Origin: an uncultured Candidatus Saccharibacteria bacterium | GTDB taxonomy: Bacteria > Patescibacteriota > Minisyncoccia > Portnoybacterales > UBA2143 | Assembly: GCA_964548405.1 (NCBI GenBank) | Contig: CAZJPW010000002.1 | Span: 17-64,016 of the forward strand | Direction: 5' to 3' | DNA length: 64,000 bases | In this document: positions 12,543 through 64,000 of the stretch, piece after piece | Layout: each line of letters starts with the position of its first letter | Position numbering within the stretch: position 1 is the stretch's first letter | Notes under the pieces: generated by a model | The model's input: only the letters and a program-made list of their open reading frames with translations | Database searches by the model: none | Told to the model about the DNA's origin: nothing | Translations under genes and position numbers: made by a program

Positions 12543-12773
12543 ATGTGTTTAGCAACTCCATCAAAAGTTATTAAAATAGAAAAAGATGAAGCTATTGTCC
12601 AATCAGGTCATCACCAGCATCGGGTTAATTTAGATTTAATCAAAGATGTTAAAATTGGAGATTATCTGCTTATCCACAACGAAATGGCTTTGAATAAAAT
12701 GCCTCAAACTGAAGCCAAGAAAATCCTTAAAATGATTAATGACCATTCTACGACTAATGTACTGAACAAGTAA
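12543..12773 (+). CDS. hypC: Hydrogenase maturation factor HypC/HybG
   Basis: Starts MCLATPSKV (the HypC N-terminal Cys signature MC[LI][AG][IV]P). 76 aa. Convergent with the hydrogenase large subunit. Confidence 0.85.
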   Translation: MCLATPSKVIKIEKDEAIVQSGHHQHRVNLDLIKDVKIGDYLLIHNEMALNKMPQTEAKKILKMINDHSTTNVLNK

Positions 12774-13962
12774 TGCAGGGATCATAGGCCCTAACTAACA
12801 TTGTAATTAGCCGTTCCAATTCTTTCTGGGAACGGTTTTTTGTTTGTTCTAATAAAGCTTGGGAACTCTTTTCAATTGAAGTTAAATTCTGAACTGTTGG
12901 AGTGATAATATTAGCCTCTTTAATAATACTATTTTTATCTAATAAAACCTCATGATAAAGTCCGCCTCGAGGCGCTTCTATAAATCCAATACCCTTTAAA
13001 GACGCATTACTTTTGGGTTTAACAGCTTTTGCTTTTAAATCCACCATTAACAGCTTTTTAATAAGCTCTCTGGCCTGCTCATGATAAATACCTATTTCAA
13101 TGGCCTGAGCCAAATTATTATGAAAGGGATTTTCAAAATCAACCTTGTATTTTTCTTCGTCATAATTCCTATGAACAGCCAACCGAGCCAAAGACCCAAC
13201 TAACATTTCTTGTCCTCGATATTTGCCAAACTTAGCTGTAGAATATTCTCTTAATTCTTCATCTATGGTTTCTTTGTAATTATTAGCTGATGATTCTTTA
13301 CGGCCTTTAATATTTTTAGAAGAAACAGCTATAATTTTATCTCCGTACAAAGCCACTAATTGCAAATCAACCTTTAATTTAGGAAATTCTATACCAGCTA
13401 CTAAATCAATTGTATCTTGGGCAGCTTTTTTAGTTTTTTCTAATTTCTTAAGTAATTTTTCTAAATTCTTCCTAGTAGGAACCTTATGAAATCCGCCAAT
13501 TCTAGTCTTGGTCGGATGAACAATCCTGCCGCCCACAATTCTAACAATTTCATCAGAAACTTCCTTTATAGATAAAGCTTTTTTAAAGACTTCTGGATTT
13601 TTCTCAGCCAGTTCTGTACCCCGATCAATCCCTAAATAGTCAGGTAGAGATAAAAAGAAAAGATGTAAAGCATGCGATTGAAGCATTTGACCGCAACTCA
13701 TTAAATCACGCAACAAAACCGTAGTTGGACTTACTTTAATATCATAGGCATTTTCAACAGCTCTTAAAGAAGCTAAATTATGGGCCGTCGGACAAACTCC
13801 GCAAATACGAGGCGTAATCCAATGCATTTCTTCAGCTGTCCGGCCGACTAACAAACCTTCGAAAAGCCGTTCGCCCTCATGAACGTTAAGTTTGACCTGG
13901 CCTTTTCTCCAGTCAATATCCAAACTCCCATGCCCTTCAATTTTAGCTATAAAATTATTCAT
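12754..13962 (-). CDS. [NiFe] hydrogenase large (alpha) subunit, group-3b-like
   Basis: N-terminal RICGVCPTAH and C-terminal DPCITCSVH Ni-Fe ligand motifs. Last gene of a beta-gamma-delta-alpha operon. Confidence 0.9.
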   Translation of the reverse strand: MNNFIAKIEGHGSLDIDWRKGQVKLNVHEGERLFEGLLVGRTAEEMHWITPRICGVCPTAHNLASLRAVENAYDIKVSPTTVLLRDLMSCGQMLQSHALHLFFLSLPDYLGIDRGTELAEKNPEVFKKALSIKEVSDEIVRIVGGRIVHPTKTRIGGFHKVPTRKNLEKLLKKLEKTKKAAQDTIDLVAGIEFPKLKVDLQLVALYGDKIIAVSSKNIKGRKESSANNYKETIDEELREYSTAKFGKYRGQEMLVGSLARLAVHRNYDEEKYKVDFENPFHNNLAQAIEIGIYHEQARELIKKLLMVDLKAKAVKPKSNASLKGIGFIEAPRGGLYHEVLLDKNSIIKEANIITPTVQNLTSIEKSSQALLEQTKNRSQKELERLITMLVRAYDPCITCSVH

Positions 13963-43399: not shown

Positions 43400-44374
43400 A
43401 TGACTCGTCGAACACGTCAAATCATACTTTTAGCAACAACTCTTTTTTTTATTCTAGCCACCCCAGCCACTTTACTTTATGCTTGGGGCTATAGTTTTGA
43501 TTGGCAAACTAAAAAACCAGTTCTTACGGGCGGTCTCTATCTTAAATCAATTCCTAAAAAAGCCGAAGTATACATTAATGATAAACCCCAAAAAGAAACA
43601 ACTCCGACATTTATTAAACGGTTATTGCCTAAAGAATATCAAATCAGAGTAACCAAACAAGGTTACCATTCTTGGCAAAAGACTTTAAAAGTTGAATCAA
43701 AAATAGTAACAGAATCAAAGAATATTCTACTTATCCCCCTTAGTCCGGAAATCGAAACGGTTAGCCAAGACTTGGCGCTTAATTTTTCCTTAGAAGATTT
43801 TATTCAGGAAGAATCAACCAATATCTTCTATATCCAAAAACCAAGCTATATCCTTTATAAAACAGATCAAGACAATTCATTCCAAGAGCAAATTAGCTTA
43901 ACTCCTCTACCCAGCAATCATCAATACGAAATATTTTCCTCGGCCAATGAACAGATTGTTGTCTTAGACAAAAAAAACCAGCTTTATCTATTTAATCAAG
44001 GAACAAAAAACTTTGAATTAATAAGTCAAAATGTCCAAAGTCTCCAATTTTCCTATAACAACAAAAGACTACTTTACTTTACCCCCTCTGAAATCTGGAT
44101 ATACCATTTAGAAAGATCGGGTAAAATAGCGGATAATAAGGAGTTAATTACTAGATTAAGCCAGAAAATTAAGCAAGCCATTTGGCACAAAACCAATGAA
44201 CACATCATTTTTTCAGTCGGAGAAAATATTAAAATAATTGAATTAGATAATCGAAGCGATAGAAATATTGTTAATTTAATCAAATTAGAAGTTAAAAAAA
44301 TGGCCTACGGCCAAAAAGACGAAAAACTTTATTTAATAAAAGAAAATGAACTACTGGCCATTACCCTGGATTAA
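43400..44374 (+). CDS. Membrane-anchored PEGA-domain protein
   Basis: N-terminal TM segment and a PEGA-like beta-sandwich motif (KAEVYINDK...KEYQIRVTKQGY). The rest has no recognised motif. Confidence 0.55.
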   Translation: MTRRTRQIILLATTLFFILATPATLLYAWGYSFDWQTKKPVLTGGLYLKSIPKKAEVYINDKPQKETTPTFIKRLLPKEYQIRVTKQGYHSWQKTLKVESKIVTESKNILLIPLSPEIETVSQDLALNFSLEDFIQEESTNIFYIQKPSYILYKTDQDNSFQEQISLTPLPSNHQYEIFSSANEQIVVLDKKNQLYLFNQGTKNFELISQNVQSLQFSYNNKRLLYFTPSEIWIYHLERSGKIADNKELITRLSQKIKQAIWHKTNEHIIFSVGENIKIIELDNRSDRNIVNLIKLEVKKMAYGQKDEKLYLIKENELLAITLD

Positions 44375-53549: not shown

Positions 53550-55256
53550 TTACTCTACTTCCTTGTTATAGCACTTCTGACAGTATACTATTTCTTTTCG
53601 CTCTGGGGAATAGGTTGTTTGGAATTTAACATTACATCCTTTGTTCATACACTGCCTTTGCCACAACCTCAAAGGATTTCTAAATCTAGACCTTTCTTTT
53701 CTTCTGCAATACATACAAGTTCTAGGCAAGGGTAAATTATGTTTTTTGTAAAAATCTAATTCTCTGGACACAATTTGAAAAACACCTGAACCGTCACAAT
53801 CACTCCCATTCTGACATCTAATTACTTGTTTTAAAATACTTTTATCTACATCATTAATATGATCTGGTAGTTTTTCTGATTTAATTGTTGCTTTGTATTC
53901 TGGCTTAGGCCGATCATACCAAGTATATCCTTTAGCTAAAGCCTGTTTTTTAGTCAAAGGAAAATATACCTGAGCTGGCGTATCATGATAACTAAAGCGG
54001 GACATTTCAAGAGGGAAAAAATCTCCATACTGATAAACTCTTTTCTTTTTATCAATGTATGGCATATCGTTCATTTGCTGCTTAATCTTCTTAATCATTT
54101 CTTTGTATTCTTGTTTGGAATATTGTTTATTAAAAATACAGTATTCTTTATGACGCAAACCAATACAGCCAAATATGTCATGGCAGTTATAGCATTCTAT
54201 GGAATAGGCAGTATCATAGCAATTATCTAAATTGCCTGAACAAACAAGATTACGACAACTAGTAGTAAAATCCGCTTCGTAAAGCAATTCTGATTTTGTT
54301 CCTCCAGCATTAACATCATAACTATCTTTAATATTCAACCCAGACATATGGATAAATTTACAATCTTCTGCTCCTTGATAAACACCAAAACATCTATAGC
54401 AGTTTTTACTTCCGTTAACATAGTCTCCAATAATACCAACTGATTTAATTATCTTAGCCCAAGGTTTGGGAAATTTTAAATTAAATCTCTCAAACTTCCT
54501 TATTAACTTCTGTACTGTCTCATAGCTTCCCAAATCATATTTCTTGATTTCCTTTAAATATTCTGCTTTGGAATATGCTTCGTTAAAGATGTGATACTTC
54601 TTGTTTCCCAAATTAACGCAGCCGAAACAGCTTTGGCAGTTACGGCAATCGTACAAAAAAGACGAATCCATACAATTATTACAAAAAGCGCTGAAAAACA
54701 AACGATAGGAATTATCACAATCAAAACACTCATAGATCCGTTCTCCTCCAATAATCATAGTTGAATCCATGGAATCTTTAGTCATGCCAGGACCATGAAG
54801 ATACAAACAGCTTTCTGAAGCAATTCCACCATGAGACATATAGCAGTTTTTGCTTTGAATTAAGTTAGTACAATACTCACAATCAACCGAATTAATCAAT
54901 CTTAAGTTATGCCAAGGAACTTGCTTCATTAACCGATTAAACTGTTCAAAGAATGTTTTCTTAAAATCATACTCCTTTCCATAATCCATTGGATCCCACT
55001 TATCTGACCACCAGATCTTTTGATCATAAACCTTGTATGATGTTTTAGGGTTATAGCCGCTGATCAATTCCTTGCCAGTAAAATCACATTTATCTTTGTA
55101 TAATCTATCAATACTCCTAACAGCCAATCTTCTAATTAAACGACACTCCGGACACCAGGTTGGTTCTGGTACATCTATCTTTTTATAAAATTCAAAATCT
55201 TCTGGTTCTATCACAAACTTAGATTTACAATTTTGGCAAGTTTCAGTTTTTTTCAT
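53550..55256 (-). CDS. Cysteine-rich bookend zinc-ribbon paralogue 1 (568 aa)
   Basis: N-terminal CQNCKSKFVIEPEDFEFYKKIDVPEPTWCPECR and a homologous C-terminal module. Internal CxxCxxCxxC and duplicated LFGC..KKYxIFNKxYSKxEY units. The member of the tandem family nearest alaS. Confidence 0.6.
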   Translation of the reverse strand: MKKTETCQNCKSKFVIEPEDFEFYKKIDVPEPTWCPECRLIRRLAVRSIDRLYKDKCDFTGKELISGYNPKTSYKVYDQKIWWSDKWDPMDYGKEYDFKKTFFEQFNRLMKQVPWHNLRLINSVDCEYCTNLIQSKNCYMSHGGIASESCLYLHGPGMTKDSMDSTMIIGGERIYECFDCDNSYRLFFSAFCNNCMDSSFLYDCRNCQSCFGCVNLGNKKYHIFNEAYSKAEYLKEIKKYDLGSYETVQKLIRKFERFNLKFPKPWAKIIKSVGIIGDYVNGSKNCYRCFGVYQGAEDCKFIHMSGLNIKDSYDVNAGGTKSELLYEADFTTSCRNLVCSGNLDNCYDTAYSIECYNCHDIFGCIGLRHKEYCIFNKQYSKQEYKEMIKKIKQQMNDMPYIDKKKRVYQYGDFFPLEMSRFSYHDTPAQVYFPLTKKQALAKGYTWYDRPKPEYKATIKSEKLPDHINDVDKSILKQVIRCQNGSDCDGSGVFQIVSRELDFYKKHNLPLPRTCMYCRRKERSRFRNPLRLWQRQCMNKGCNVKFQTTYSPERKEIVYCQKCYNKEVE

Positions 55257-56602
55257 TTGTTTTTAATAAAGAATTTTGAAATAATACTTCCAATTATTAA
55301 CCCAGCTAAAGTAGAAACCAAAGCATAACCAACAACCAATGGAGTAAATGAACCAGTTACTGAAACTACAATAAAAACGATTAGACCTAAGGCATATCCT
55401 AGAGTCAAAGCAAACCCAGAAATTCTTCTAAAAAGCCAAGTAGTAATTATTCCAACTCCTAAAACAATACCAATTGTTGCCCATAAATACGTTGAGACAA
55501 TGACACTTTTTAATAAATAACTGGCAATGGCAGCTAAAACAATAATCACGGCCATAGTAATCCTAAAATATTTAACGGTCTGCTCTTTACTAACCTTCTT
55601 ATTCCTTAAAACAAAATCCTGCAGAAAAACTGAGCTGCTTGTAAAAATATATGTATCGGTTGATGACATTACTGCCGAGAACATTAAAACTCCACCAATG
55701 CCTAAAAAGTAAACTGGTAATAGATGAATTAATCCTTTGATAAAAGCTATTTCAGGATCTGCCTCAGGCATATGTGTTTTAATGACTAAACCAATCAGAA
55801 TCATAATAAAAATCATCAAAGGATAAATTGTCATTGACATTAAGAATCCCCTCTTTAAAGTCTTCTTATTCTTTGTCGCATATATTCTCTGAAACATGGC
55901 TGGCTGGAAAAACGGAGTCAAAACCCCAAGAATGATAAACATAGGAATATTCCCTAATCCAGATGACCAAGGATCTAAATATTCCCTATCAACTTTCCAA
56001 ATACTAGTCAAACTAAACAACATTATTAACAACAAAACTAGAATAACAATATATTGAAAAAAATCTGTTTTTACAACTGCTTTAAAACCTCCTGCAATCA
56101 GATAAATAAAAACAACAGAAGTAATTAAAACAAGAGAAACATTAAAACTAAATCCCGTTATTTCAAACAAAGCTTTTGAACCAGCTGTTAATTGGACAAT
56201 TATTGAAAATGTTAATTTGAGCAAGGCTAATGTAGCAGCTAAATACCCCGCTGTCTTGCCATAATTTTTAAAAACATAGTCAGCCAAGGTATAGTATTGA
56301 TTTTTATCTGCTTCATCTTTCAAACGATTTTTAGCAAAAAGATAAAAAACCCAAAAACCAGCCACTGCTCCTAATAAATACCAAATAGCACCCATATCAT
56401 ACAAATATACAAAAGTAACCAAAACAAGCAAAAAACCACCATCCGCCTTACTAGCAGCAATAGTGGCAAAAGTAGACAAGGAACTAACTTTCCTATCACC
56501 CAAAAGAAAACCTTCAGCTGTTTGTTTACGTGAAGCCCAAAGGCCAATAACTATTGAAATAGCGAAGTAGGCTGAGATTAAAACTATTCCTAATGTTCCC
56601 AT
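55253..56602 (-). CDS. Polytopic (about 13-14 TM) transporter, sodium:solute-symporter-like
   Basis: Hydrophobicity pattern and loose SSF-like N-terminal region (GFLLGDRKVSSLSTFATIAASKADGG). Embedded between paralogues 1 and 2 with 4-nt overlaps. Confidence 0.5.
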   Translation of the reverse strand: MGTLGIVLISAYFAISIVIGLWASRKQTAEGFLLGDRKVSSLSTFATIAASKADGGFLLVLVTFVYLYDMGAIWYLLGAVAGFWVFYLFAKNRLKDEADKNQYYTLADYVFKNYGKTAGYLAATLALLKLTFSIIVQLTAGSKALFEITGFSFNVSLVLITSVVFIYLIAGGFKAVVKTDFFQYIVILVLLLIMLFSLTSIWKVDREYLDPWSSGLGNIPMFIILGVLTPFFQPAMFQRIYATKNKKTLKRGFLMSMTIYPLMIFIMILIGLVIKTHMPEADPEIAFIKGLIHLLPVYFLGIGGVLMFSAVMSSTDTYIFTSSSVFLQDFVLRNKKVSKEQTVKYFRITMAVIIVLAAIASYLLKSVIVSTYLWATIGIVLGVGIITTWLFRRISGFALTLGYALGLIVFIVVSVTGSFTPLVVGYALVSTLAGLIIGSIISKFFIKNK

Positions 56603-56606
56603 AAAT

Positions 56607-58340
56607 TTATTCTACTTCTTTATTATAACATTTTTCACAATAAACTACTTCTTTCCTATCTAGGGAATAGGTTGTTTGGAATTTGGTATTGCAACCTTTT
56701 TTCATACATTGACGTTCCCAAAGTTTAATCGTACTTCTTTGTTGAATCCTTTCCTGATGTCTACATTCTGGACACAGACGAGGCAAAGCTAAACCATATT
56801 TTTGATAAAACTTAAGCTCGTTAGGAATAATTTTAAAAACACCCGAACCAGCACAATCAGAATTCTGGCATTCAATTGTTTCTTTTAAAATACTTACATC
56901 TATATCTTTGATATAATCTGATAAATCTTTAGATTTAATAGTTGTCTCGTAATTTGACTTTTCTTCTCTATACCAATTATATCCTTGTTTTGAAGCCTGT
57001 TCCTTATTTAAAGGAAAATATCTTTGAACTATAGATTCGTTGTATCCAAAACGAGAAAGTTCAATCGGAAAATATTCTCCATACTTATATTCTCTTCCCT
57101 TTTTATCAAGATACGGCATTTGATCCATCTGCTTCTTAATCTTTCCCACTATTTCAAAATACTCCTCTTTTGAGTATTGCTTATTTAAAATACAATATTT
57201 CTTTTTTCTCAAAGAAACACAGCCAAACAAATCTGAAGAACCATGACAGCCTTCTGAATAAAATACATCTCTGCTTGTCCAAACAGCATTGTCAAAAAAC
57301 ATTCGATCGCATCTTTCAACAACACAAACTGATTCATAGGCTCGAGTCACAAAATACCCTGTATCATAGACATCATAAGAATCTTTAAGTCCCCAGCCAG
57401 TAATTAATACATATTTAGAATCTTCTGTCCCTTTATCTCCATTGAAGCAATATTGACAGTTTTTGGAATTAGCCATATCATCGCCAACCACATTAACTGC
57501 TTTTTCGATTCTGGCAAATTTGCGTGGAAATTTAATATGGAAATCCTTAAATCTTTTTTCAACATCCAAAATCGTCTTATGACTACCTAAATCATACTTT
57601 TCCATTTCCTTTTCATATTCTGTCTTGGAATATGCTTTGTTGAATATGTGATACTTTTTGTTTCTCAAATTAACACAACCAAAACAATCGTGGCAATTAC
57701 GACAATTATACAAAAAAGCTGAATTATGACATTCTAGGCAATCCCAACTAAAAAAGAGTTTATAGCATTTTGAACAACCAACACAAAAATAGCAAAGTTC
57801 ATCATTGACTGCCTTATACATATCCATACAATCCTTGTTTTCTCCAGACCAAGTTGTATAGGAACAATTTTCTGACATTCCGCCCAAGAATACTAAATAG
57901 CAGTCTTTGGTCTGAGTCATATCATGACAATAATCGCTATTCTCCGAATTAGTATTTAAAAGATTAACTACTGGCGTATCTTTCTGTAATTGATAAAACT
58001 GCTCAAAAAATGATTTGTTAGAATCATATTCTCTTCCATATTCCATAGGGTCCCAATTATCTGACCACCAGCATTTATTACAATAAACCTTAAATGGCTT
58101 ATCCGGAGAGTAAATCGTGACCATAGATTTACTACATAGATCACATTTTCTTTTGTATAGCTTTCTTTCATTCCAAGAAGCTAATCTTCGCTGCATGCGG
58201 CATTGAGGACAAAAGGTAGGCTCCGGCACATCTATCTTTTTATAGAATTTCTTATCTTCTGATTCAATATTAAATTCAATTTTACAGTTTTGACAGATTT
58301 TTGTTTTAAAATCCATTATTCTATCTCCTTTTGATAACAC
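56607..58340 (-). CDS. Cysteine-rich bookend zinc-ribbon paralogue 2 (577 aa)
   Basis: Same architecture and conserved termini as paralogue 1. The central region diverges. Confidence 0.6.
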   Translation of the reverse strand: MLSKGDRIMDFKTKICQNCKIEFNIESEDKKFYKKIDVPEPTFCPQCRMQRRLASWNERKLYKRKCDLCSKSMVTIYSPDKPFKVYCNKCWWSDNWDPMEYGREYDSNKSFFEQFYQLQKDTPVVNLLNTNSENSDYCHDMTQTKDCYLVFLGGMSENCSYTTWSGENKDCMDMYKAVNDELCYFCVGCSKCYKLFFSWDCLECHNSAFLYNCRNCHDCFGCVNLRNKKYHIFNKAYSKTEYEKEMEKYDLGSHKTILDVEKRFKDFHIKFPRKFARIEKAVNVVGDDMANSKNCQYCFNGDKGTEDSKYVLITGWGLKDSYDVYDTGYFVTRAYESVCVVERCDRMFFDNAVWTSRDVFYSEGCHGSSDLFGCVSLRKKKYCILNKQYSKEEYFEIVGKIKKQMDQMPYLDKKGREYKYGEYFPIELSRFGYNESIVQRYFPLNKEQASKQGYNWYREEKSNYETTIKSKDLSDYIKDIDVSILKETIECQNSDCAGSGVFKIIPNELKFYQKYGLALPRLCPECRHQERIQQRSTIKLWERQCMKKGCNTKFQTTYSLDRKEVVYCEKCYNKEVE

Positions 58341-60034
58341 TTCTCACAATATACAATTTCTTTTCTATCTGGGGAATAAGTTGTTTGGAATTTAGTATTA
58401 CAGCCTTTTTTCATACATTGTCTGTTGTATAATTTCATTGGATTTCTCAATTTAATTCTATCCTGATGCCTGCATTCATGACATAATCTTGGAATAGGAA
58501 TGCCTTGTTTTTTATAAAACTTATACTCTCCTGGAATTAATCTGAATACTTTAGTCCCCTGACAATCTTTATTTTCACATTCTACTACCTCTTTTAATAT
58601 TTTATCATCTACATCCTTAATATCATCTGGAATGTCTTGAGCTTTAATTGTCGCCTTATACTCTGCCTCCGACTTACCATACCAATTAAATCCTTGTTCC
58701 TTAGCTTTATCTTCAGAAAGAGGGAAATATTCATTAGCTATGGTTTCATTATATCCAAAAGGACTTAATTCAGCTGGGAAAAACTCTCCGTATTTATATA
58801 CCCTCCCTTTTTTATCAACATATGGCATCTCATCCATATGTTTTTTAATTTTAGGAACTAATTCTTCATATTCTTTTTTAGTATATTGCTTGTTTAAAAT
58901 ACAATATTTTTTATGACGCAATCCAACACAACCAAAAAGATGATGAGAATTATTTGAACCAATAGTATATTCCATATCATACAAATTAATCATATGATCT
59001 TTAACACTCTTAGGTATATTCAGCCAACAAAATTTAGTTTGATACCCTCCACTTTCTTCAAGTTCATAACAAAGTTCGCCACCAGCAATAGCTATGTCAT
59101 AACATTCTTTACTAGGCATAAAAAGAATCATTTGACAGTAAGAACAATCTTCTAAATCTCTATTAATGAACGAATTTTGAACATTTTTACAATTGTTTAA
59201 GTAGTCTCCAGATACATCAATGCTTTTTCGACTATGCATAAACTTATTTGGAAATTTCATTTGGAATTCTTTAGCTTTTTTTTCTAAAGCTAAAATACTT
59301 TTATATGAACCAAGATTAAATTCTTTTAATTTTTCTTCATATTCTTTCTTAGAATAGGCTTTATTAAATATATGGTATTTTTTATGCCTTAAATTAACAC
59401 AGCCAAAACAATTCTGGCAATTAACTAAATTCTTAGAAAACCAAACATTAGAACATTCGTGACAATCAGTTGAAAAAAATACTTGATAACATTTAGCGCA
59501 ATCAAATAGGTTATATGAAAGTTCCACATCATTTACTTTAACCAAATCGTAGCTATCTAAAGACCCCGTAGTATCAATCGCATAAGCCACATTTTCAGAC
59601 ATGCCCGTATTAAAAACTAAATAACAGTTTTTAATATGACCTGTATTATTAGTAAAAGGACTATTAACCGAATCTAATTCAAATTTATGAGGAAATCCGA
59701 CTTGATGCAATAATTCTTCAATTTGTTTAAGAAGTGGCTTATTAAAATCATATTCCTTTCCATATTTCATAGCATCCATTTTATCAGACCACCAATATTT
59801 TCCATCATAAACTTTAAAAGGAAACTTAGGTGAAATACAGGCAAAAACCTCCTTATCAAGCCCTTCTACTTTTCTCTTGTAAAGAATCCGGCCACTTCTA
59901 AAAGCCAGTCGCCTTTGACTACGACAGCCAGGACACCAAGTTGGCTCCGGCGCATCTATCTTATGATAAAAATCACTATCCTCCGGAAAGATAGTGAATT
60001 CTTCATGACAGCTTTGACACTTCTTTTTTTTCAT
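58316..60034 (-). CDS. Cysteine-rich bookend zinc-ribbon paralogue 3 (572 aa)
   Basis: Same architecture. Overlaps paralogue 2 by 25 nt. Confidence 0.6.
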   Translation of the reverse strand: MKKKKCQSCHEEFTIFPEDSDFYHKIDAPEPTWCPGCRSQRRLAFRSGRILYKRKVEGLDKEVFACISPKFPFKVYDGKYWWSDKMDAMKYGKEYDFNKPLLKQIEELLHQVGFPHKFELDSVNSPFTNNTGHIKNCYLVFNTGMSENVAYAIDTTGSLDSYDLVKVNDVELSYNLFDCAKCYQVFFSTDCHECSNVWFSKNLVNCQNCFGCVNLRHKKYHIFNKAYSKKEYEEKLKEFNLGSYKSILALEKKAKEFQMKFPNKFMHSRKSIDVSGDYLNNCKNVQNSFINRDLEDCSYCQMILFMPSKECYDIAIAGGELCYELEESGGYQTKFCWLNIPKSVKDHMINLYDMEYTIGSNNSHHLFGCVGLRHKKYCILNKQYTKKEYEELVPKIKKHMDEMPYVDKKGRVYKYGEFFPAELSPFGYNETIANEYFPLSEDKAKEQGFNWYGKSEAEYKATIKAQDIPDDIKDVDDKILKEVVECENKDCQGTKVFRLIPGEYKFYKKQGIPIPRLCHECRHQDRIKLRNPMKLYNRQCMKKGCNTKFQTTYSPDRKEIVYCEKCYQKEIE

Positions 60035-60039
60035 AAATA

Positions 60040-61458
60040 TTAAACTAATGGTTCAGGATCTTTATCTTCTTCTTTAGATTTTTCAACTTTACCAGTTTTT
60101 TTAACCATTTCCTCTTCTTCTAATTTCTTTTTAACTTCTGCCAAAGGAAGAGCATATTTTTCTCTGCTTTGCTTAATAATTTCATCTTTAAACGATTTAT
60201 GATTAGGTGATAAAACTTTTAAGGTTTCAGCAGAAAAAGGATCAAAAGTTTCTCCATCAATAGTCATTTTAATGTAAAATTCTTGAATACCTAAATTAAT
60301 CATATCTTCAGCTCCAAAAACAGGTGTCATTTCTACAGCCATTCTAGCAGCATCATCTCCGCCAATTCTAAAAGTAACCATTGTTCCAATATTTCCTAAA
60401 ACTGTAGCTAAAACTCTTTCTAATAACTGAGCAATATATTGATGAGCGACAGTAATACATAACCCATATTTCCTTGATTCAGCAAATAGGTTTTCAAAAG
60501 TAGTCGTAACTAAGTTTTGAAACTCATCTACATAAAGATAGAAATCTTCCCTATCTTGTTCAGGCATTGAAGCTCTAGCCATACCAGCTTGATAAAGTTT
60601 AGTAATAAACATAGAGCCAAAGAAACTACTATTCTCTTCACCCAACTTTCCTTTAGAAAGAGAAATTAAAAGAATTTTCTTCTGATTCATAATTTCTTCT
60701 AAATCAATCTTATTTTCCTTCTGTCCAAAAATATTTCTTAACAAAGGATTAGATAGAAACTGACTTAACTTATTAACTAAAGGAATAATAGCTTCAGTAT
60801 CAAACTTTTCTGACCAATCAGCAAATTCAACTGCCCAGAATCTCTTAACCATATCATCTTCAATATAGTCAATTACTTTTTGACGATAATTCCTATCTGT
60901 TAAAATTTGAATCATACCTCTCATAGTTGCCTCTGGGTAATCAAGTAAAGCCAAAGTAGTAAATCTAAAAACATGTTCTAAGCGTGGCGTCCAGTTAGCT
61001 CCAAATTGTTTTTGTAAAACTTCTAATAAGCCTTGGGTAACCTGATGTTTTAAATCAGGGTCAATATTTGATAAAGGATTAAAAGAAATTGGAAAATCTG
61101 TATCCGAAGGATCTATAACAATAACATCATTAATTCTTTCTTTAGGAATAAATTTTAAAACATCTTCGATGAAATCTCCATGAGGATCAATTAAACAAAC
61201 TCCATGGCCATAAGCAATATCTTGACGGATAATTAATTCCATTAATTTACTTTTACCAACTCCACTTTTACCAACCATATACAAGTGCCTTCTGCGATCT
61301 GCTCTTTTCATACCAAAAATGAACTTCTTTTCTTCCAAAGCAGCTTCGTAATTAGTTCTTCCAAAAAAAGAACACTCTTCAGGATTAACTTTGCCGTAAA
61401 CAGGTAATTCTGGAGGAGGAGGCGCATATTTAATTTTACGAATTGTTCCTCTAGCCAT
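60040..61458 (-). CDS. P-loop NTPase of the HerA/FtsK/VirD4-coupling-protein type (DUF87-like)
   Basis: Walker A MVGKSGVGKS, Walker B LYVDEFQN and a downstream VAHQYIAQL motif typical of TraD/VirD4/HerA ATPases. K/E-rich C-terminal tail. Confidence 0.6.
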   Translation of the reverse strand: MARGTIRKIKYAPPPPELPVYGKVNPEECSFFGRTNYEAALEEKKFIFGMKRADRRRHLYMVGKSGVGKSKLMELIIRQDIAYGHGVCLIDPHGDFIEDVLKFIPKERINDVIVIDPSDTDFPISFNPLSNIDPDLKHQVTQGLLEVLQKQFGANWTPRLEHVFRFTTLALLDYPEATMRGMIQILTDRNYRQKVIDYIEDDMVKRFWAVEFADWSEKFDTEAIIPLVNKLSQFLSNPLLRNIFGQKENKIDLEEIMNQKKILLISLSKGKLGEENSSFFGSMFITKLYQAGMARASMPEQDREDFYLYVDEFQNLVTTTFENLFAESRKYGLCITVAHQYIAQLLERVLATVLGNIGTMVTFRIGGDDAARMAVEMTPVFGAEDMINLGIQEFYIKMTIDGETFDPFSAETLKVLSPNHKSFKDEIIKQSREKYALPLAEVKKKLEEEEMVKKTGKVEKSKEEDKDPEPLV

Positions 61459-61515: not shown

Positions 61516-63228
61516 TTACCCTATTTCTTTGTTATAGCACTTTTCGCAGTAAATAATTTCCTTTCTCTCTGGAGAATAGGTTGTTTGGAATTTAACATTA
61601 CAACCTTCTTTCATGCATTGACGCTCCCATAATTCAAGAGGATTTCTTTGCTTAATGCGCTCAGTATAACGACAATTAGGACATAATCTAGGTAAAGATA
61701 AGTCATTCTTTTTTAGAAAATCATATTCTTGAGGAATAATCCGATATACGCCCGAACCAATACAATGATCATTAGCGCATTTTATTACTTCCTTTAAAAT
61801 TGATTTATCAATACTATCTACATCATCCGGTAAATCTAAAGCATTAATAGTAGGGCGATACTCTGATTTTAAATTTTTATACCAATTATATCCCTTCTCT
61901 TCAATTTGTTTTTTTGTTAATGGAAAATATTCACCGGCTATAGTCTTGTTATAACTAAAAACAGAAAATTCTATTGGAAAGAATTCTCCATATTTATAAA
62001 TTCTTCCTTTTTTATCTTTATAAGGCATATCATTCATATGCTGTTTAATTTTTGGAATTAATTCCTCATATTCCTTCTTGGTATATTGTTTGTTTAAAAT
62101 ACAATGCTTTTTATGCTTTAATCCAATACAACCAAAAAGATTGGATGAACTAAAACAACTATCTGAATATTCTATATTGTAGACATTTTCTAAAATATTT
62201 ATCGAAAATTTAATTTTACTAAGATTAATCCCGGCCGTAACACTTTCGTAAATCAAATTCGCTTTGTCTCCTCCATCAAAAATATCATAGCTATCTTTTA
62301 ATTTCTTACCACCAGCCCAAATATACTTACAGTTTTCCGCGCCGCCCTCTAAAAGATAAAAGGAATAATGACAATTTTTGGAATCTTTAATATCATTACC
62401 AGAAACATTAATTGAATTGTATATACGTGCGTATCTCCGCGGAAAGCCTATCTTAAATTCTTCGAATTTACTTTTTACCTTTTCAAAATTAATATAACTA
62501 TTAAGCCCGTATTTCTCTAACTCTTTTTGATATTCTTTTTTAGAATAGGGCTTATTAAAAATATGATATTTTTTGTGTCTTAAGTTAACACAGCCAAAAC
62601 AATTCTGGCAATTCTTGCAGTCATACAAAAAAGCAGAATCAATGCAATAATCGGAATGCTGACTAAAATAGACATTATAATTTCTATCGCAAAAAATATT
62701 TTCGTAGCATTTTTCACTCTTAATCAGCCAAAAATTATCAAAACAATTTTTAGAATCCCCAACTACTGAATAAGCACAATTTTCAGAATTATTGCCGGTG
62801 CATAAATAACAGTCCTTACAATTGTACGCTCCGGCACAATAATCACAGTTAACCGAACTTTTATTGTAATTATGAGGCCTTGGTATAGCTAATCTTAATT
62901 CTTTAAATTGTTCAAAAAAAGATTTACTAAAATCATACTCCCTTCCATATTCCATAGGATCCCATTTATCCGACCACCAAATCTTTTGATCATAGACTTT
63001 ATAAGGGCTATCTGGATGATAAATAGAAATTATTTCCTTACCTGAGAAATCACATTTTCTTTTATAAAGTTCTAAAAGATTCCAATGAACCATCCGTCTT
63101 TGCATTCTACAATCAGGACAAAAAGTAGGTTCTGGCACATCTATTTTTTTATAAAACTCAAAATCTTCTGGTTCAATAACGAACTTTGATTTACAATTTT
63201 GACATTGTTTTGTTTTAGATTCATCCAT
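61516..63228 (-). CDS. Cysteine-rich bookend zinc-ribbon paralogue 4 (570 aa)
   Basis: Same architecture as paralogues 1-3. Confidence 0.6.
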   Translation of the reverse strand: MDESKTKQCQNCKSKFVIEPEDFEFYKKIDVPEPTFCPDCRMQRRMVHWNLLELYKRKCDFSGKEIISIYHPDSPYKVYDQKIWWSDKWDPMEYGREYDFSKSFFEQFKELRLAIPRPHNYNKSSVNCDYCAGAYNCKDCYLCTGNNSENCAYSVVGDSKNCFDNFWLIKSEKCYENIFCDRNYNVYFSQHSDYCIDSAFLYDCKNCQNCFGCVNLRHKKYHIFNKPYSKKEYQKELEKYGLNSYINFEKVKSKFEEFKIGFPRRYARIYNSINVSGNDIKDSKNCHYSFYLLEGGAENCKYIWAGGKKLKDSYDIFDGGDKANLIYESVTAGINLSKIKFSINILENVYNIEYSDSCFSSSNLFGCIGLKHKKHCILNKQYTKKEYEELIPKIKQHMNDMPYKDKKGRIYKYGEFFPIEFSVFSYNKTIAGEYFPLTKKQIEEKGYNWYKNLKSEYRPTINALDLPDDVDSIDKSILKEVIKCANDHCIGSGVYRIIPQEYDFLKKNDLSLPRLCPNCRYTERIKQRNPLELWERQCMKEGCNVKFQTTYSPERKEIIYCEKCYNKEIG

Positions 63229-63299
63229 ATATTGACTTGGATTTCTAATATGAAGTATAATATTGATAGTACTAAATTACAATGAGAGGGGGATATATC

Positions 63300-63458
63300 A
63301 TGGCACCGGAAAAAATACCTTACGAACTTCCAGCAATTGCTTTCACACTGGAAGACCTTCCATCTCAGACTGCTGCCTGGGGAGGTGGATCAATTTTTCT
63401 ACCTGAATCTGGCGGAGTCTCTCGACCCAAACTCAAAGACAAAACCATCGAAAAATAA
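63300..63458 (+). CDS. Candidate 52-aa micro-protein (MAPEKIPYELPAIAFTLEDLPSQTAAWGGGSIFLPESGGVSRPKLKDKTIEK), GC-rich, opposite strand
   Basis: Hand-translated. RBS GAGGGGG about 7 nt upstream of the ATG and an intrinsic terminator 20 nt downstream. Local GC about 47% against about 33%. Absent from the track because it is under 60 aa. Confidence 0.35.
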   Translation: MAPEKIPYELPAIAFTLEDLPSQTAAWGGGSIFLPESGGVSRPKLKDKTIEK

Positions 63459-63478
63459 TTCTCGATGAACTGTCGCTA

Positions 63479-63521
63479 CCGCTCTTGTGGATACTGAATT
63501 CGCACGAGCGGTATTTTTATT
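63479..63521 (+). terminator. Intrinsic terminator after the micro-ORF (CCGCTCTTGTG...CACGAGCGG hairpin plus TATTTTTATT)
   Basis: A stem of about 9 bp with one mismatch, read directly, followed by a T-tract. Confidence 0.5.
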
Positions 63522-63525
63522 CTCT

Positions 63526-64000
63526 TTATTCTACTTCTTTTTGATAACATTTTTCGCAATATATAATTTCTTTCCTATCTGGAGCATAGCTTGTTTGAAA
63601 TTTAACATCACAACCCTTTTTCATACATTGTCTTTCCCATAACTTTATTGGGTTTCTTTTACTTAATCTTTCTTTATATCGACAATCTGGACAAATTCTT
63701 GACAAAGGCAAATTCATTTTTTTGTAAAACCGATACTCTGACTCAATTATTCTAAAAACTCCAGAACTCTGACAAACACTACCTTCATTACCACACTCTA
63801 TAATCTCTTTCAAAATAGAACTATCTGTATCTTTGATATTATCTGGTAAATTCTCTACTTTAATAGTCGGCTTATGTTCTAATTTAGGACGATCAAGCCA
63901 AGTATATCCCTGTTCTAAAGCCTGCTCCTTTGTTAAAGGAAAGAATTCTTGATTAATAGTTTCGTTGTAGGCAAAAGGACTAAATTCAGCTGGATAAAAC
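63526..64000 (-). CDS. Cysteine-rich bookend zinc-ribbon paralogue 5 (3' part; gene runs off the window edge)
   Basis: The C-terminal module is highly similar to paralogues 1-4 (...CQKEVE). Hand translation shows the frame stays open from 63813 to 64000 (...YFPLTKEQALEQGYTWLDRPKLEHKPTIKVENLPDNIKDTDSSILKE...). The track start at 63813 is only an internal TTG. Confidence 0.6.
   Translation of the reverse strand, partial: FYPAEFSPFAYNETINQEFFPLTKEQALEQGYTWLDRPKLEHKPTIKVENLPDNIKDTDSSILKEIIECGNEGSVCQSSGVFRIIESEYRFYKKMNLPLSRICPDCRYKERLSKRNPIKLWERQCMKKGCDVKFQTSYAPDRKEIIYCEKCYQKEVE

What the first reader, a model, noticed from the sequence alone, without database searches (positions are those of the whole stretch)
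61516..63228. Bookend architecture: the same ~60-aa zinc-ribbon-like module at both N- and C-termini, plus CxxCxxCxxC and duplicated LFGC...KKYxIxNKxYSKxEY units
Within each paralogue the N-terminus (CQNCKSKFVIEPEDFEFYKKIDVPEPTFCPDCRMQRRMVHWNLLELYKRKC) and the C-terminal region (CANDHCIGSGVYRIIPQEYDFLKKNDLSLPRLCPNCRYTERIKQRNPLELWERQC) are recognisably the same module: CxxC - F.I.P.(D/E)F.F(Y/L)KK.D.P.P..CP.CR - R..RN.L.L(W/Y).R.C. That implies an internal duplication placed at the two ends. Between them is a CxxCxxCxxC cluster (YDCKNCQNCFGC in three of four complete copies; CxxCxxC in the fourth), which could ligate an Fe-S or zinc site. The conserved unit L/IFGC(V/I)xL(R/K)HKK(Y/H)xI(L/F)NKxY(S/T)KxEY occurs twice per protein. 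Each protein has about 30 or more Cys, with no signal peptide or TM segment, so it is probably cytoplasmic and metal-loaded. I do not recognise the fold.
Basis: seen in the sequence. Interest (0 to 1): 0.7.

Follow-up and report, generated by a model that had tools for sequence, protein, structure and literature searches.

The report
Zinc-finger-capped paralogue family beside VirD4-like ATPases
The gene encodes one member of a large, unnamed, cysteine-rich protein family of ultra-small Patescibacteria that carries the same double zinc-finger module at both ends, sits in long rows of old gene copies, and lies next to orphan VirD4-like motor ATPases whose role in these bacteria is unknown.

Summary
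In all four complete paralogues the first ~85 and last ~95 residues are the same module (BLASTP E 5e-12; shuffle z 11-17; profile-profile E 1.9e-25). The module is two consecutive treble-clef zinc fingers, marginal to Pfam zf_Tbcl and to zf_Tbcl_2 / CxxC-x17-CxxC. The repeated "FGC...NKxYSKxEY" unit is the end of a second, larger internal duplication: residues ~100-262 against ~262-412 (E 2.8e-37). These are Cys/Asn-rich, beta-rich repeats with only weak, solenoid-like fold matches. Across 223 homologues the finger cysteines are 85-100% conserved and the CxxCxxCxxC cluster 81-96%. Most other cysteines are 8-47% conserved.

The family is large (3,750 clusters at 50% identity), essentially confined to Patescibacteria, and absent from Pfam, NCBIfam, PDB, phage and plasmid collections. 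Genes form co-directional tandem arrays of old paralogues: at least 6 at this locus and at least 19 in another genome. They are linked in both directions to soluble VirD4/TraD-like ATPases, some of which carry the same finger.

Function is untested. My best reading is that these are zinc-structured cytoplasmic partners (adaptors or clients, probably binding nucleic acid) of that ATPase. Confidence is modest.

The parts
61516..63228 (-). The finding's gene: 570-aa family member (paralogue A)
   Evidence: ORF; identical protein P0001 occurs on public Patescibacteria-type contigs.
62929..63228 (-). N-terminal module (aa 1-100). Treble-clef finger 1 uses C9, C12, C37, C40, followed by an Arg-rich helix (R41, R45, R49). 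Finger 2 is degenerate (only C59), followed by the WWSDKWD motif.
   Evidence: Sub-threshold PF13451 (18.7 bits); 35 of 51 homologues hit PF13451. Cys conservation 0.99-1.00; second site 0.79/0.40/0.41/0.40. pLDDT 85-95.
62443..62931 (-). Central repeat 1 (aa ~100-262): Cys/Asn-rich beta-rich repeats with roughly 11-12 or 22-aa periodicity, capped by CxxCxxCxxC, a hairpin and a helix
62590..62619 (-). CxxCxxCxxC cluster (C204, C207, C210, C213)
   Evidence: Conserved 0.81/0.87/0.96/0.86 in 223 homologues. The metal is unknown.
62530..62601 (-). First CFGCVNLRHKKYHIFNKPYSKKEY unit (aa 210-233)
   Evidence: Regex match in all four paralogues.
61993..62442 (-). Central repeat 2 (aa ~263-412), homologous to repeat 1. 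Conserved cysteines are C358, C367 and C376.
62068..62139 (-). Second LFGCIGLKHKKHCILNKQYTKKEY unit (aa 364-387)
61804..61992 (-). Conserved aromatic-rich connector (aa 413-475) with the YKYGEFFP...SxFxYNxT...YFPL motifs. It is among the best-conserved stretches of the family.
   Evidence: Conservation profile. It was chosen as the scan pattern.
61519..61803 (-). C-terminal module (aa 476-570). Finger 1 uses C484, C489, C516, C519, followed by an Arg stripe R520, R524, R528 on the helix. Finger 2 uses C538, C543, C561, C564 (x17 spacing).
   Evidence: Module-only AF2 model with pLDDT 90.8 shows two knuckle-hairpin-helix units. Cys conservation 0.85-0.99. Sub-threshold PF23477.
60040..61458 (-). 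Soluble VirD4/TraD/TrwB-like P-loop ATPase (472 aa, no N-terminal membrane domain), embedded in the array
   Evidence: PF10412 at 43.4 bits, plus DUF87, T4SS-DNA_transf and TraG-D_C. It belongs to neighbour cluster 0, found in 36 of 81 loci. Reverse test: 66 of 80 loci.
58316..60034 (-). Paralogue B (572 aa), 5 bp downstream of the ATPase
56607..58316 (-). Paralogue C. The true start is probably the ATG at 58316, which overlaps the upstream stop as TAATG, giving 569 aa. It keeps both N-terminal fingers.
53550..55256 (-). Paralogue D (568 aa)
63526..64000 (-). 3' part of paralogue E (568 aa in the full contig), cut by the end of the window. A sixth copy lies further upstream in contig L001.

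Best explanation
SHOWN. The gene belongs to a very large family of ~570-aa soluble proteins that is essentially restricted to Patescibacteria. The architecture is: double treble-clef finger module, beta-rich Cys/Asn repeat 1, its duplicate repeat 2, an aromatic-rich connector, then the same double finger module again. The invariant cysteines sit in classical four-ligand finger geometry. The genes lie in co-directional, tightly packed tandem arrays of old paralogues within the core chromosome. They are linked in both directions to soluble VirD4/TraD-like ATPases, and the long forms of these ATPases carry a bona fide CxxC-x17-CxxC finger of the same type as the family's last finger.

INFERRED. 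The C-terminal module should hold two Zn2+ and the N-terminal module one Zn2+ (two in ~40% of members). The proteins are cytoplasmic, zinc-stabilised binding scaffolds that work with that ATPase as its adaptors or clients. The conserved terminal fingers, each presenting a conserved Arg stripe on one helix face (R41/R45/R49 and R520/R524/R528), would be the common handles that bind a polyanion (most likely DNA or RNA) and/or dock to the ATPase. The less conserved repeat surfaces would give each paralogue its own specificity. Most cysteines outside the fingers would be structural core residues, not redox or Fe-S ligands.
For: Duplications. Finger identity: PF13451 hit in 35 of 51 members, best E 6.9e-6; knuckle-hairpin-helix repeated twice in a pLDDT-90.8 model; the second Cys pair sits at the start of each helix.

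Cys conservation: fingers 0.85-1.00, cluster 0.81-0.96, other cysteines 0.08-0.47. Arg stripe conservation: 0.97/0.90/0.72 and 1.00/0.91/0.66. No membrane segment or signal-like segment.

Family size and taxonomy: at least 7,727 hits; 3,750 clusters at 50% identity; the best 80 genome loci are nearly all labelled Patescibacteria, or are unclassified MAGs.

Arrays: 59 of 86 loci have 2 or more copies, up to 12 in ~20 kb. The median gap between family genes is 8.5 bp. At least 19 copies lie in 34 kb of one contig. The paralogues are old: within-locus identity has a median of 39.5%, and 96% of members have their closest relative in another genome.

ATPase linkage: an ATPase is present in 36 of 81 family loci, rising to 22 of 30 loci with 4 or more copies. 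The median ATPase-to-family gap is 36 bp. In the reverse direction, 66 of 80 loci fetched with the ATPase carry a family gene, and in 63 of them it lies within ~1.2 kb.

Shared finger: the ATPase tail matches PF23477 at 48.7 bits and TIGR04272 at 49.8 bits. The family's C-module HMM hits only those ATPase tails among about 2,600 non-family ORFs.

Literature: 5,713 VirD4-like homologues occur in Patescibacteria, only 148 near virB4, and the authors leave open exaptation to other functions (PMC12102498).
Against: There is no experimental or homology-based function for any part. Zinc binding, nucleic-acid binding and interaction with the ATPase are all untested. Gene linkage is strong but not universal: an ATPase was found in only 4 of 26 single-copy loci, some of which lie on short contigs. 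No fixed orthologue pairs with the ATPase. The finger HMM scores for this protein are below the curated cut-offs (18.7 < 24 bits; 14.9 < 27 bits). The central repeats are modelled at only pLDDT 63-69, so 'solenoid' is a weak call. The need for 6-19 long-retained paralogues is not explained by a simple adaptor model.
Confidence: 0.4

Rival explanations
1. Exported effectors or surface proteins. The VirD4-like ATPase would act as a true type IV coupling protein that recruits these paralogues through their conserved termini and hands them to the Patescibacteria T4SS for delivery to or onto the host cell.
For: The ATPase is homologous to T4CPs, including the monoderm VirD4-like CD1115 family. According to PMC12102498, coupling-protein genes typically sit next to their substrate genes. 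Patescibacteria largely lack relaxases, so the T4SS substrate is unknown. Large paralogue sets and solenoid-like bodies are common in host-interaction proteins.
Against: The ATPase lacks an N-terminal membrane anchor: the Walker A motif sits at residues 21-71 in most copies. Only 148 of 5,713 such genes lie near virB4, and the homologue was not essential for epibiotic growth in the one strain tested. No VirB4 was found among the ten largest of the window's not-yet-annotated ORFs, the only ones scanned. The paralogues are ancient and conserved rather than fast-diversifying. Multi-zinc fingers are typical of intracellular proteins. There is no signal peptide.
Confidence: 0.2
2. Autonomous nucleic-acid-binding proteins (regulators, nucleoid or RNA organisers, or a defence sensor set). 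Their adjacency to the ATPase would reflect a shared substrate such as DNA, not a physical partnership.
For: Arg stripes on the finger helices. Net positive charge of the repeats, +4 and +8. JGI's own label for one homologue is 'Zn ribbon nucleic-acid-binding protein'. TrwB/FtsK/HerA-type ATPases are DNA translocases. The ATPase gives weak PADLOC hits to mad8 and HerA.
Against: The family has no PADLOC hit. There is no DNA-binding domain match. The family is absent from mobile elements. The shared finger type and operon-like spacing point towards a direct partnership instead.
Confidence: 0.2
3. One reading: a metal-loaded redox, Fe-S or metal-buffering protein in which the ~30 cysteines, including CxxCxxCxxC, are the functional ligands.
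For: The CxxCxxCxxC cluster is conserved 81-96%. A CutA1 divalent-ion-tolerance gene sits next to family genes in 10 of 81 loci and is adjacent in 9 of them.
Against: About a third of the cysteines are poorly conserved, 8-47%. The conserved ones form canonical structural zinc-finger quartets. The 2-2-2 spacing is not a standard Fe-S motif (my knowledge, not tested). Repeat 2 usually lacks the cluster (C361 at 0.32, C364 at 0.27). No Fe-S assembly or redox partners recur nearby.
Confidence: 0.1

Closest known systems
Pfam PF13451 zf_Tbcl ('probable treble clef domain', formerly a probable zinc-ribbon domain)
   Same: It shares CxxC - ~24 aa with F.(I/F)..E(D/Q).FY - CPxCR, with the second Cys pair at the start of a helix. 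35 of 51 family members hit the model.
   Different: This protein scores below the gathering threshold (18.7 against 24 bits). Here the finger is fused to a second finger and used twice, at both ends of a 570-aa protein. PF13451 itself has no known function.
PF23477 zf_Tbcl_2 / NCBIfam TIGR04272 CxxC-x17-CxxC domain
   Same: The last finger (C538...C543-x17-C561xxC564, 'F.TTY.P.R.EI.YC..CY') has the x17 spacing and the aromatic/Pro pattern. The neighbouring long-form ATPases carry a true copy (48.7 and 49.8 bits).
   Different: The first Cys pair is Cx4C (or longer, with a Cys/His insertion in many homologues) instead of CxxC. The score is sub-threshold (14.9 bits; 16.0 bits for the N-terminal copy in paralogue C). 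The domain's function is unknown.
Type IV coupling proteins (VirD4/TraD/TrwB) and their substrates
   Same: The neighbour has the T4CP nucleotide-binding domain (PF10412, PF02534, PF12696). As with T4CP-relaxase pairs, the ATPase gene sits beside a specific partner gene family.
   Different: The ATPase has no membrane anchor, no virB4 or relaxase is nearby, and the partner is a zinc-finger/beta-repeat protein unrelated to relaxases or known effectors.
Beta-helix / beta-solenoid proteins (LpxA-type left-handed beta-helix, curli CsgA, insect antifreeze proteins)
   Different: All matches are below significance. The model confidence there is 63-69. The known examples are enzymes or extracellular proteins, with no zinc-finger caps.
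LIM domains (two consecutive zinc fingers)
   Same: Eight ligands bind two zinc ions in one compact module. There is a weak sequence echo, 'W..C..C...YC..CY' (E 0.4-0.7).
   Different: The match is not significant. The two fingers are separated by an 18-aa helix rather than 2 residues. LIM domains are eukaryotic.

Membership tests
PF13451 zf_Tbcl | HMM score at or above the gathering threshold (24 bits) | tested here: not met
   18.7 bits, E 0.0018 for this protein; 16-19 bits for its paralogues. 35 of 51 homologues match at E <= 1, best 6.9e-6. The family is therefore a fringe relative rather than a formal member.
PF13451 zf_Tbcl | Two Cys pairs, with the second pair at the N-terminus of a helix (treble-clef geometry) | tested here: met
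   C9/C12 with C37/C40, helix 38-46; C484/C489 with C516/C519, helix 517-528. Cys conservation 0.85-1.00.
PF23477 zf_Tbcl_2 / TIGR04272 CxxC-x17-CxxC | CxxC-x17-CxxC ligand spacing | tested here: inconclusive
   The C-terminal finger is C538-x4-C543-x17-C561-x2-C564: the x17 spacing and the second pair are met, but the first pair is Cx4C. Paralogue C's N-terminal finger has CDLC...CNKC.
PF23477 zf_Tbcl_2 / TIGR04272 CxxC-x17-CxxC | HMM score at or above the cut-off (27 bits Pfam, 36 bits NCBIfam) | tested here: not met
   14.9-16 bits (Pfam) and 13.1 bits (NCBIfam) for the family modules. 48.7 and 49.8 bits for the neighbouring ATPase tail.
Type IV coupling protein (for the neighbouring ATPase 60040-61458) | VirD4/TrwB-type nucleotide-binding domain | tested here: met
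   PF10412 43.4 bits (GA 20.5), PF02534 30.3 bits, PF12696 26.2 bits. The long form matches NF045973 at E 1.9e-11.
Type IV coupling protein (for the neighbouring ATPase 60040-61458) | N-terminal transmembrane anchor | tested here: not met
   Walker A sits at residues 21-71 in most of 58 copies. The median of the maximum hydropathy is 1.31.
Type IV coupling protein (for the neighbouring ATPase 60040-61458) | Encoded with a T4SS (virB4) or a relaxase | tested here: not met
   No VirB4-like or relaxase domain was found in the 27 window ORFs scanned with Pfam, which include the whole 42-64 kb stretch. About 40 smaller ORFs between 1 and 42 kb were not scanned. Literature: 148 of 5,713 lie near virB4.
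Fe-S (ferredoxin-like) proteins | Canonical cluster motif such as CxxCxxCxxxCP, or a match to an Fe-S domain model | tested here: not met
   The spacing is CxxCxxCxxC. There is no Fe-S Pfam or NCBIfam hit at E <= 1 in the four paralogues or the 51 homologues. Metal content cannot be tested here.

The most novel reading that the evidence does not exclude
The orphan, soluble VirD4-like ATPases of Patescibacteria and these zinc-finger-capped paralogue arrays together form a previously undescribed two-component system. The ATPase would recognise the conserved terminal finger handles and either translocate the proteins (possibly with bound nucleic acid) through the relaxase-less Patescibacteria T4SS into host cells, or remodel them on DNA. 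The multi-paralogue set would be the long-sought cargo or adaptor repertoire of that secretion system.
Probability: 0.2. Interest if true: 0.85.

Novelty: new variant of a known kind. Interest (0 to 1): 0.6.

Why it matters
Patescibacteria have tiny genomes, yet some devote 20-35 kb (6 to at least 19 genes) to this one unnamed family. Whatever it does is therefore probably important to their biology.

The linkage found here gives a concrete candidate partner for the thousands of 'orphan' VirD4-like ATPases. A 2025 survey could not connect these ATPases to the T4SS and suggested they may have been exapted (PMC12102498). That makes the open question of what these ATPases do, and what the relaxase-less Patescibacteria T4SS handles, directly testable with two recombinant proteins.

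The work also defines a new domain architecture and an unmodelled ~150-aa repeat plus connector domain that current family databases do not cover.

Tried and rejected
- **Sequence searches of PDB**, with the protein, a 51-sequence profile, the C-terminal module and the ATPase finger, gave nothing significant.
- **Family databases.** PADLOC gave no hit for the family. NCBIfam gave none.
- **Mobile elements.** Searches of phages, plasmids and IMG/VR found nothing, so the family is not a mobile-element gene.
- **A CCHC/CCHH zinc site in the repeat caps** (C204/C213/H218/H222 and C358/C367/H372/C376) was rejected, because positions 218 and 372 are mostly Asn in the family.
- **A fixed orthologue pairing** between the ATPase and one particular paralogue was not found.
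- **Promoter-like sites** are no more frequent than in shuffles (55 against 51.9). Operon structure is therefore inferred from gene spacing only.
- **A protein search with a 44-aa consensus finger** returned just two hits. Its only use was to show NCBI's name for the domain.
- **Literature searches** for the family, using cysteine-rich / Patescibacteria, PF13451, and Parcubacteria zinc ribbon paralogs, found no description of it.
- **Whether the two ends contact each other** in the model could not be checked, because coordinates are not exposed.
Full report
**What is at the coordinates**

Region 61516-63228 is a complete 570-aa ORF on the - strand. It is one of four complete paralogues in the window:
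- 53550-55256
- 56607-58340
- 58316-60034
- 61516-63228

These share 50-56% pairwise identity. A fifth copy has its 3' end at 63526-64000. The window ends inside that gene, so the '95-aa ORF' is not a gene of its own. The same locus on a public 87-kb contig shows a sixth copy further upstream.

The window has about 35% G+C, and nearly all its genes are on the - strand. The flanking genes are housekeeping: AlaRS, FtsA, ribosomal proteins, RpoA and MurA-like. Inside the array lie a sodium:solute symporter (55253-56602) and a 472-aa VirD4/TraD/TrwB-like ATPase (60040-61458).

**Checking the observation**

The N-terminal 100 aa and the C-terminal 103 aa align with BLASTP E 5e-12, at 32% identity over 71 aa. 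Against 1000 shuffles the local score has z = 11-17 in each of the four paralogues. Profiles built from 223 homologues give hhalign probability 99.7%, E 1.9e-25, over 82 columns.

- In the C-terminal copy the ligands are C484, C489, C516, C519 and then C538, C543, C561, C564.
- In the N-terminal copy they are C9, C12, C37, C40. The second site survives only as C59 in this protein.
- The second N-terminal site is complete (CDLC...CNKC) in paralogue 56607 and in about 40% of the family.

The unit xFGCxxLxxKxYxIxNKxYSKxEY occurs twice in every copy. It is the C-terminal cap of a much larger internal duplication: residues ~100-262 against ~262-412 (z = 19; hhalign E 2.8e-37 over 127 columns).

Cysteine counts are 29-37. 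No hydrophobic segment exists in any of the 223 members.

**What the parts are**

Pfam gives only sub-threshold hits. PF13451 zf_Tbcl matches the first finger at 18.7 bits (GA 24), and PF23477 zf_Tbcl_2 matches the second at about 15 bits (GA 27). The PF13451 hit is consistent, however: 35 of 51 homologues match, best E 6.9e-6.

An AlphaFold model of the whole protein, built on a 51-sequence alignment, has mean pLDDT 81 and pTM 0.83. Both end modules score 77-95 and the cores of the two central repeats 63-69. A model of the C-terminal module alone has pLDDT 90.8. It shows the element knuckle, beta-hairpin, helix twice, with the second Cys pair in the first turn of each helix. That is the treble-clef arrangement.

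Neither model has a significant solved relative:
- Foldseek finds nothing.
- The only PDB hit of the family profile is the Cys-ladder beta-helix antifreeze protein of Tenebrio, at E 1.4.

The central repeats show a weak internal periodicity: a self-match at a 45-residue shift with E 1.5e-4, and (S)-(K/E)-(N/D)-(C)-(Y) motifs every ~11-12 residues. 'Solenoid-like' is therefore a reasonable but weak description.

**Which cysteines matter**

Conservation in 223 full-length homologues:

| Cysteines | Fraction conserved |
|---|---|
| C9, C12, C37, C40 | 0.99-1.00 |
| C484, C489, C516, C519 | 0.85-0.98 |
| C538, C543, C561, C564 | 0.99 |
| C204, C207, C210, C213 | 0.81, 0.87, 0.96, 0.86 |
| C358, C367, C376 | 0.74, 0.94, 0.84 |
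| C140, C174, C195 | 0.65-0.80 |
| The other 8 central-repeat cysteines | 0.08-0.47 |

So about 20 cysteines are functionally constrained, most of them in classical four-ligand sites. The rest look like a residue preference of the repeat core.

Each finger helix carries conserved arginines at i, i+4 and i+8: R41, R45, R49 at 0.97, 0.90, 0.72, and R520, R524, R528 at 1.00, 0.91, 0.66. That places them on one face of the helix. This is the kind of surface that binds a polyanion. That last step is inference.

The connector (aa 413-475, YKYGEFFP...YNET...YFPL) is among the best-conserved stretches and matches no known domain.

**The family**

The word-indexed search returned at least 7,727 proteins. 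The exhaustive search returned 3,750 clusters at 50% identity with E <= 1e-3, and 1,529 with E <= 1e-30. Almost all listed hits are 550-600 aa and unnamed.

The best 80 are nearly all labelled Patescibacteria or are unclassified MAGs. They include Nomura-, Lipton-, Staskawicz-, Giovannoni-, Jorgensen-, Sung-, Moran- and Harrisonbacteria and Paceibacterota. The exceptions are one 1.8-kb contig in a Gammaproteobacteria-labelled bin and, in the protein search, one hit labelled Actinobacteria. I take both to be binning noise.

No relatives occur in the phage, plasmid or IMG/VR collections. I found no paper describing the family.

**Genomic organisation**

I called ORFs in 86 loci and searched them with the family HMM. 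This found 284 family ORFs. Of the 86 loci, 59 have at least two copies within ~20 kb, and five have 8-12. One Patescibacteria contig (JALLOO010000001.1) has at least 19 copies in its first 34 kb.

Copies are co-directional. The median intergenic gap is 8.5 bp. In the window, one junction is a TAATG stop/start overlap preceded by AAGGAG.

The paralogues are old. Within-locus identity has a median of 39.5%, and 96% of members have their nearest relative in another genome. This is a long-retained multi-paralogue complement, not a recent or hypervariable expansion.

**The conserved neighbour**

I clustered all non-family ORFs. The dominant neighbour is the VirD4/TraD-like ATPase to which 60040-61458 belongs:
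- There are 68 such genes in 36 of 81 non-redundant loci, and 66 of the 68 are co-directional with the family genes.
- 38 of them are immediately adjacent to a family gene.
- The median ATPase-to-family gap is 36 bp.
- An ATPase is present in 22 of 30 loci with four or more family copies.

The reverse test used 80 metagenome loci fetched with the ATPase as the query. Of these, 66 contain a family gene, including 42 of the 48 loci of at least 9 kb. In 63 of the 66 the nearest family gene lies within ~1.2 kb. The adjacent paralogue is not one fixed orthologue.

Most of these ATPases have no N-terminal membrane domain. In 19 of 68, the longer forms carry a C-terminal finger of the type 'CSxCGKxTxVPFxPxxGRPVYCxxC'. 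This is a true PF23477/TIGR04272 CxxC-x17-CxxC domain, at 48.7 and 49.8 bits. Among about 2,600 non-family ORFs, the family's C-module HMM hits only these ATPase tails.

[quoted passage not shown] It noted that the homologue was non-essential in the one strain tested. It left open that these ATPases have been exapted (PMC12102498).

Minor recurrent neighbours are CutA1 (10 loci, adjacent in 9), DnaJ and the dnaK operon, FtsA and AlaRS.

**Interpretation**

Firmly shown:
- the architecture (finger pair, repeat, repeat, connector, finger pair);
- both internal duplications;
- the conservation pattern of the cysteines;
- the taxonomic restriction;
- the tandem arrays;
- the two-way linkage with a soluble VirD4-like ATPase that shares a finger type.

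Inferred:
- the fingers bind zinc (three sites in this protein, four in paralogue C, and possibly one more at CxxCxxCxxC);
- the proteins are cytoplasmic;
- they act with the ATPase as adaptors or clients;
- the conserved Arg-striped fingers are common handles for nucleic acid and/or for the ATPase, while the more variable repeat bodies are the paralogue-specific parts.

I put this reading at about 0.4. The rivals are:
- T4SS-delivered effectors (0.2). This is attractive because coupling-protein genes usually sit beside their substrates and Patescibacteria lack relaxases. It is weakened by the missing membrane anchor, the distance from virB4, the age of the paralogues and the intracellular character of multi-zinc fingers.
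- Autonomous nucleic-acid-binding proteins (0.2).
It is supported only by the conserved CxxCxxCxxC and the CutA1 neighbour.

**Comparison with known families and novelty**

The end modules are fringe relatives of two catalogued zinc-finger domain families that themselves have no known function. They fail both curated thresholds, so I do not file the protein as a formal member of either.

The neighbouring ATPase passes the T4CP domain test. It fails the membrane-anchor criterion, and no T4SS or relaxase gene was found among the 27 window ORFs I scanned. About 40 smaller ORFs between 1 and 42 kb were not scanned.

The central repeats and the connector are not in Pfam, NCBIfam or the PDB. The whole is therefore a new architecture built partly from known kinds of modules, and a gene linkage that I found described nowhere. 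I rate it 'new variant of a known kind', with a 0.2 chance that it marks a new ATPase-coupled system.

I score interest at 0.6. This is a very abundant dark-matter family that occupies several percent of some of the smallest bacterial genomes, and it gives a concrete, testable partner for the orphan Patescibacteria coupling-protein homologues. No function is demonstrated.

Noticed in passing
window 58314-58340: The listed GTG start (58340) of paralogue 56607-58340 is probably wrong. An ATG at 58316-58314 overlaps the TAA stop of the upstream paralogue by one base (TAATG), with AAGGAG 9 nt upstream. That gives a 569-aa protein, as annotated on contig L002, and suggests translational coupling.
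   Followed up: yes
window 63526-64000; L001:1-3394: The 95-aa ORF is the tail of a full-length (568-aa) fifth paralogue cut by the window end. A sixth copy lies beyond it on the public contig.
   Followed up: yes
L020 and L005 (contig JALLOO010000001.1, positions 1-34324): A Patescibacteria genome (AH-259-L05) has at least 19 family genes in its first 34 kb, interrupted only by an AAA_14/DUF4143 ATPase gene.
   Followed up: partly
L013:12142-12447, L014:9661-9969 and 8 other loci: A 101-aa CutA1 (PF03091, E 6e-30) gene sits directly next to family genes in 9 of the 10 loci where it occurs, often between a family gene and the ATPase. This is a possible link to metals and remains unexplained.
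   Followed up: partly
homologues P0009-P0268 (C-terminal finger; reference position 540): 54% of family members have an extra Cys at reference position 540. Many also carry a ~20-aa Cys/His-rich insertion (CQCAGEKS...H.H...C) inside the last finger, which may be an additional metal site. The window's copies lack it.
   Followed up: no
window 60040-61458; L038:8249-9742: The short-form ATPases share a conserved N-terminal 'IKYAPPPPELP' motif and end in a conserved acidic 'EPEPL(V/I)' C-terminus. This could be a docking peptide.
   Followed up: no
window 55253-56602: A sodium:solute symporter (PF00474, E 1e-28) is inserted between paralogues. Its start overlaps the end of the upstream copy's neighbour by 4 bp, so it is probably co-transcribed with the array.
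   Followed up: no
L006:3040-8313: In one metagenome contig the hrcA-grpE-dnaK-dnaJ operon is flanked on both sides by family genes. DnaJ genes recur within 10 kb in 11 loci.
   Followed up: no
window 1-64000: Nearly every gene is on the - strand. The main exception is a PEGA-domain ORF at 43400-44374. GC skew is uniformly negative (-0.16 to -0.34) over the whole 64 kb.
   Followed up: no
window 12754-13962: A 402-aa ORF matches the NiFe-hydrogenase large subunit (PF00374, E 1e-39) in two stretches. It is shorter than the 508-position profile.
   Followed up: no
window 63229-63525: The 297-bp spacer between paralogues E and A holds a terminator-like hairpin with a T-run on the - strand (63468-63445) and a weak promoter-like site (63282-63254). 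So paralogue A may start a new transcription unit. Gene callers place a 58-aa ORF on the opposite strand here, which is probably spurious.
   Followed up: partly
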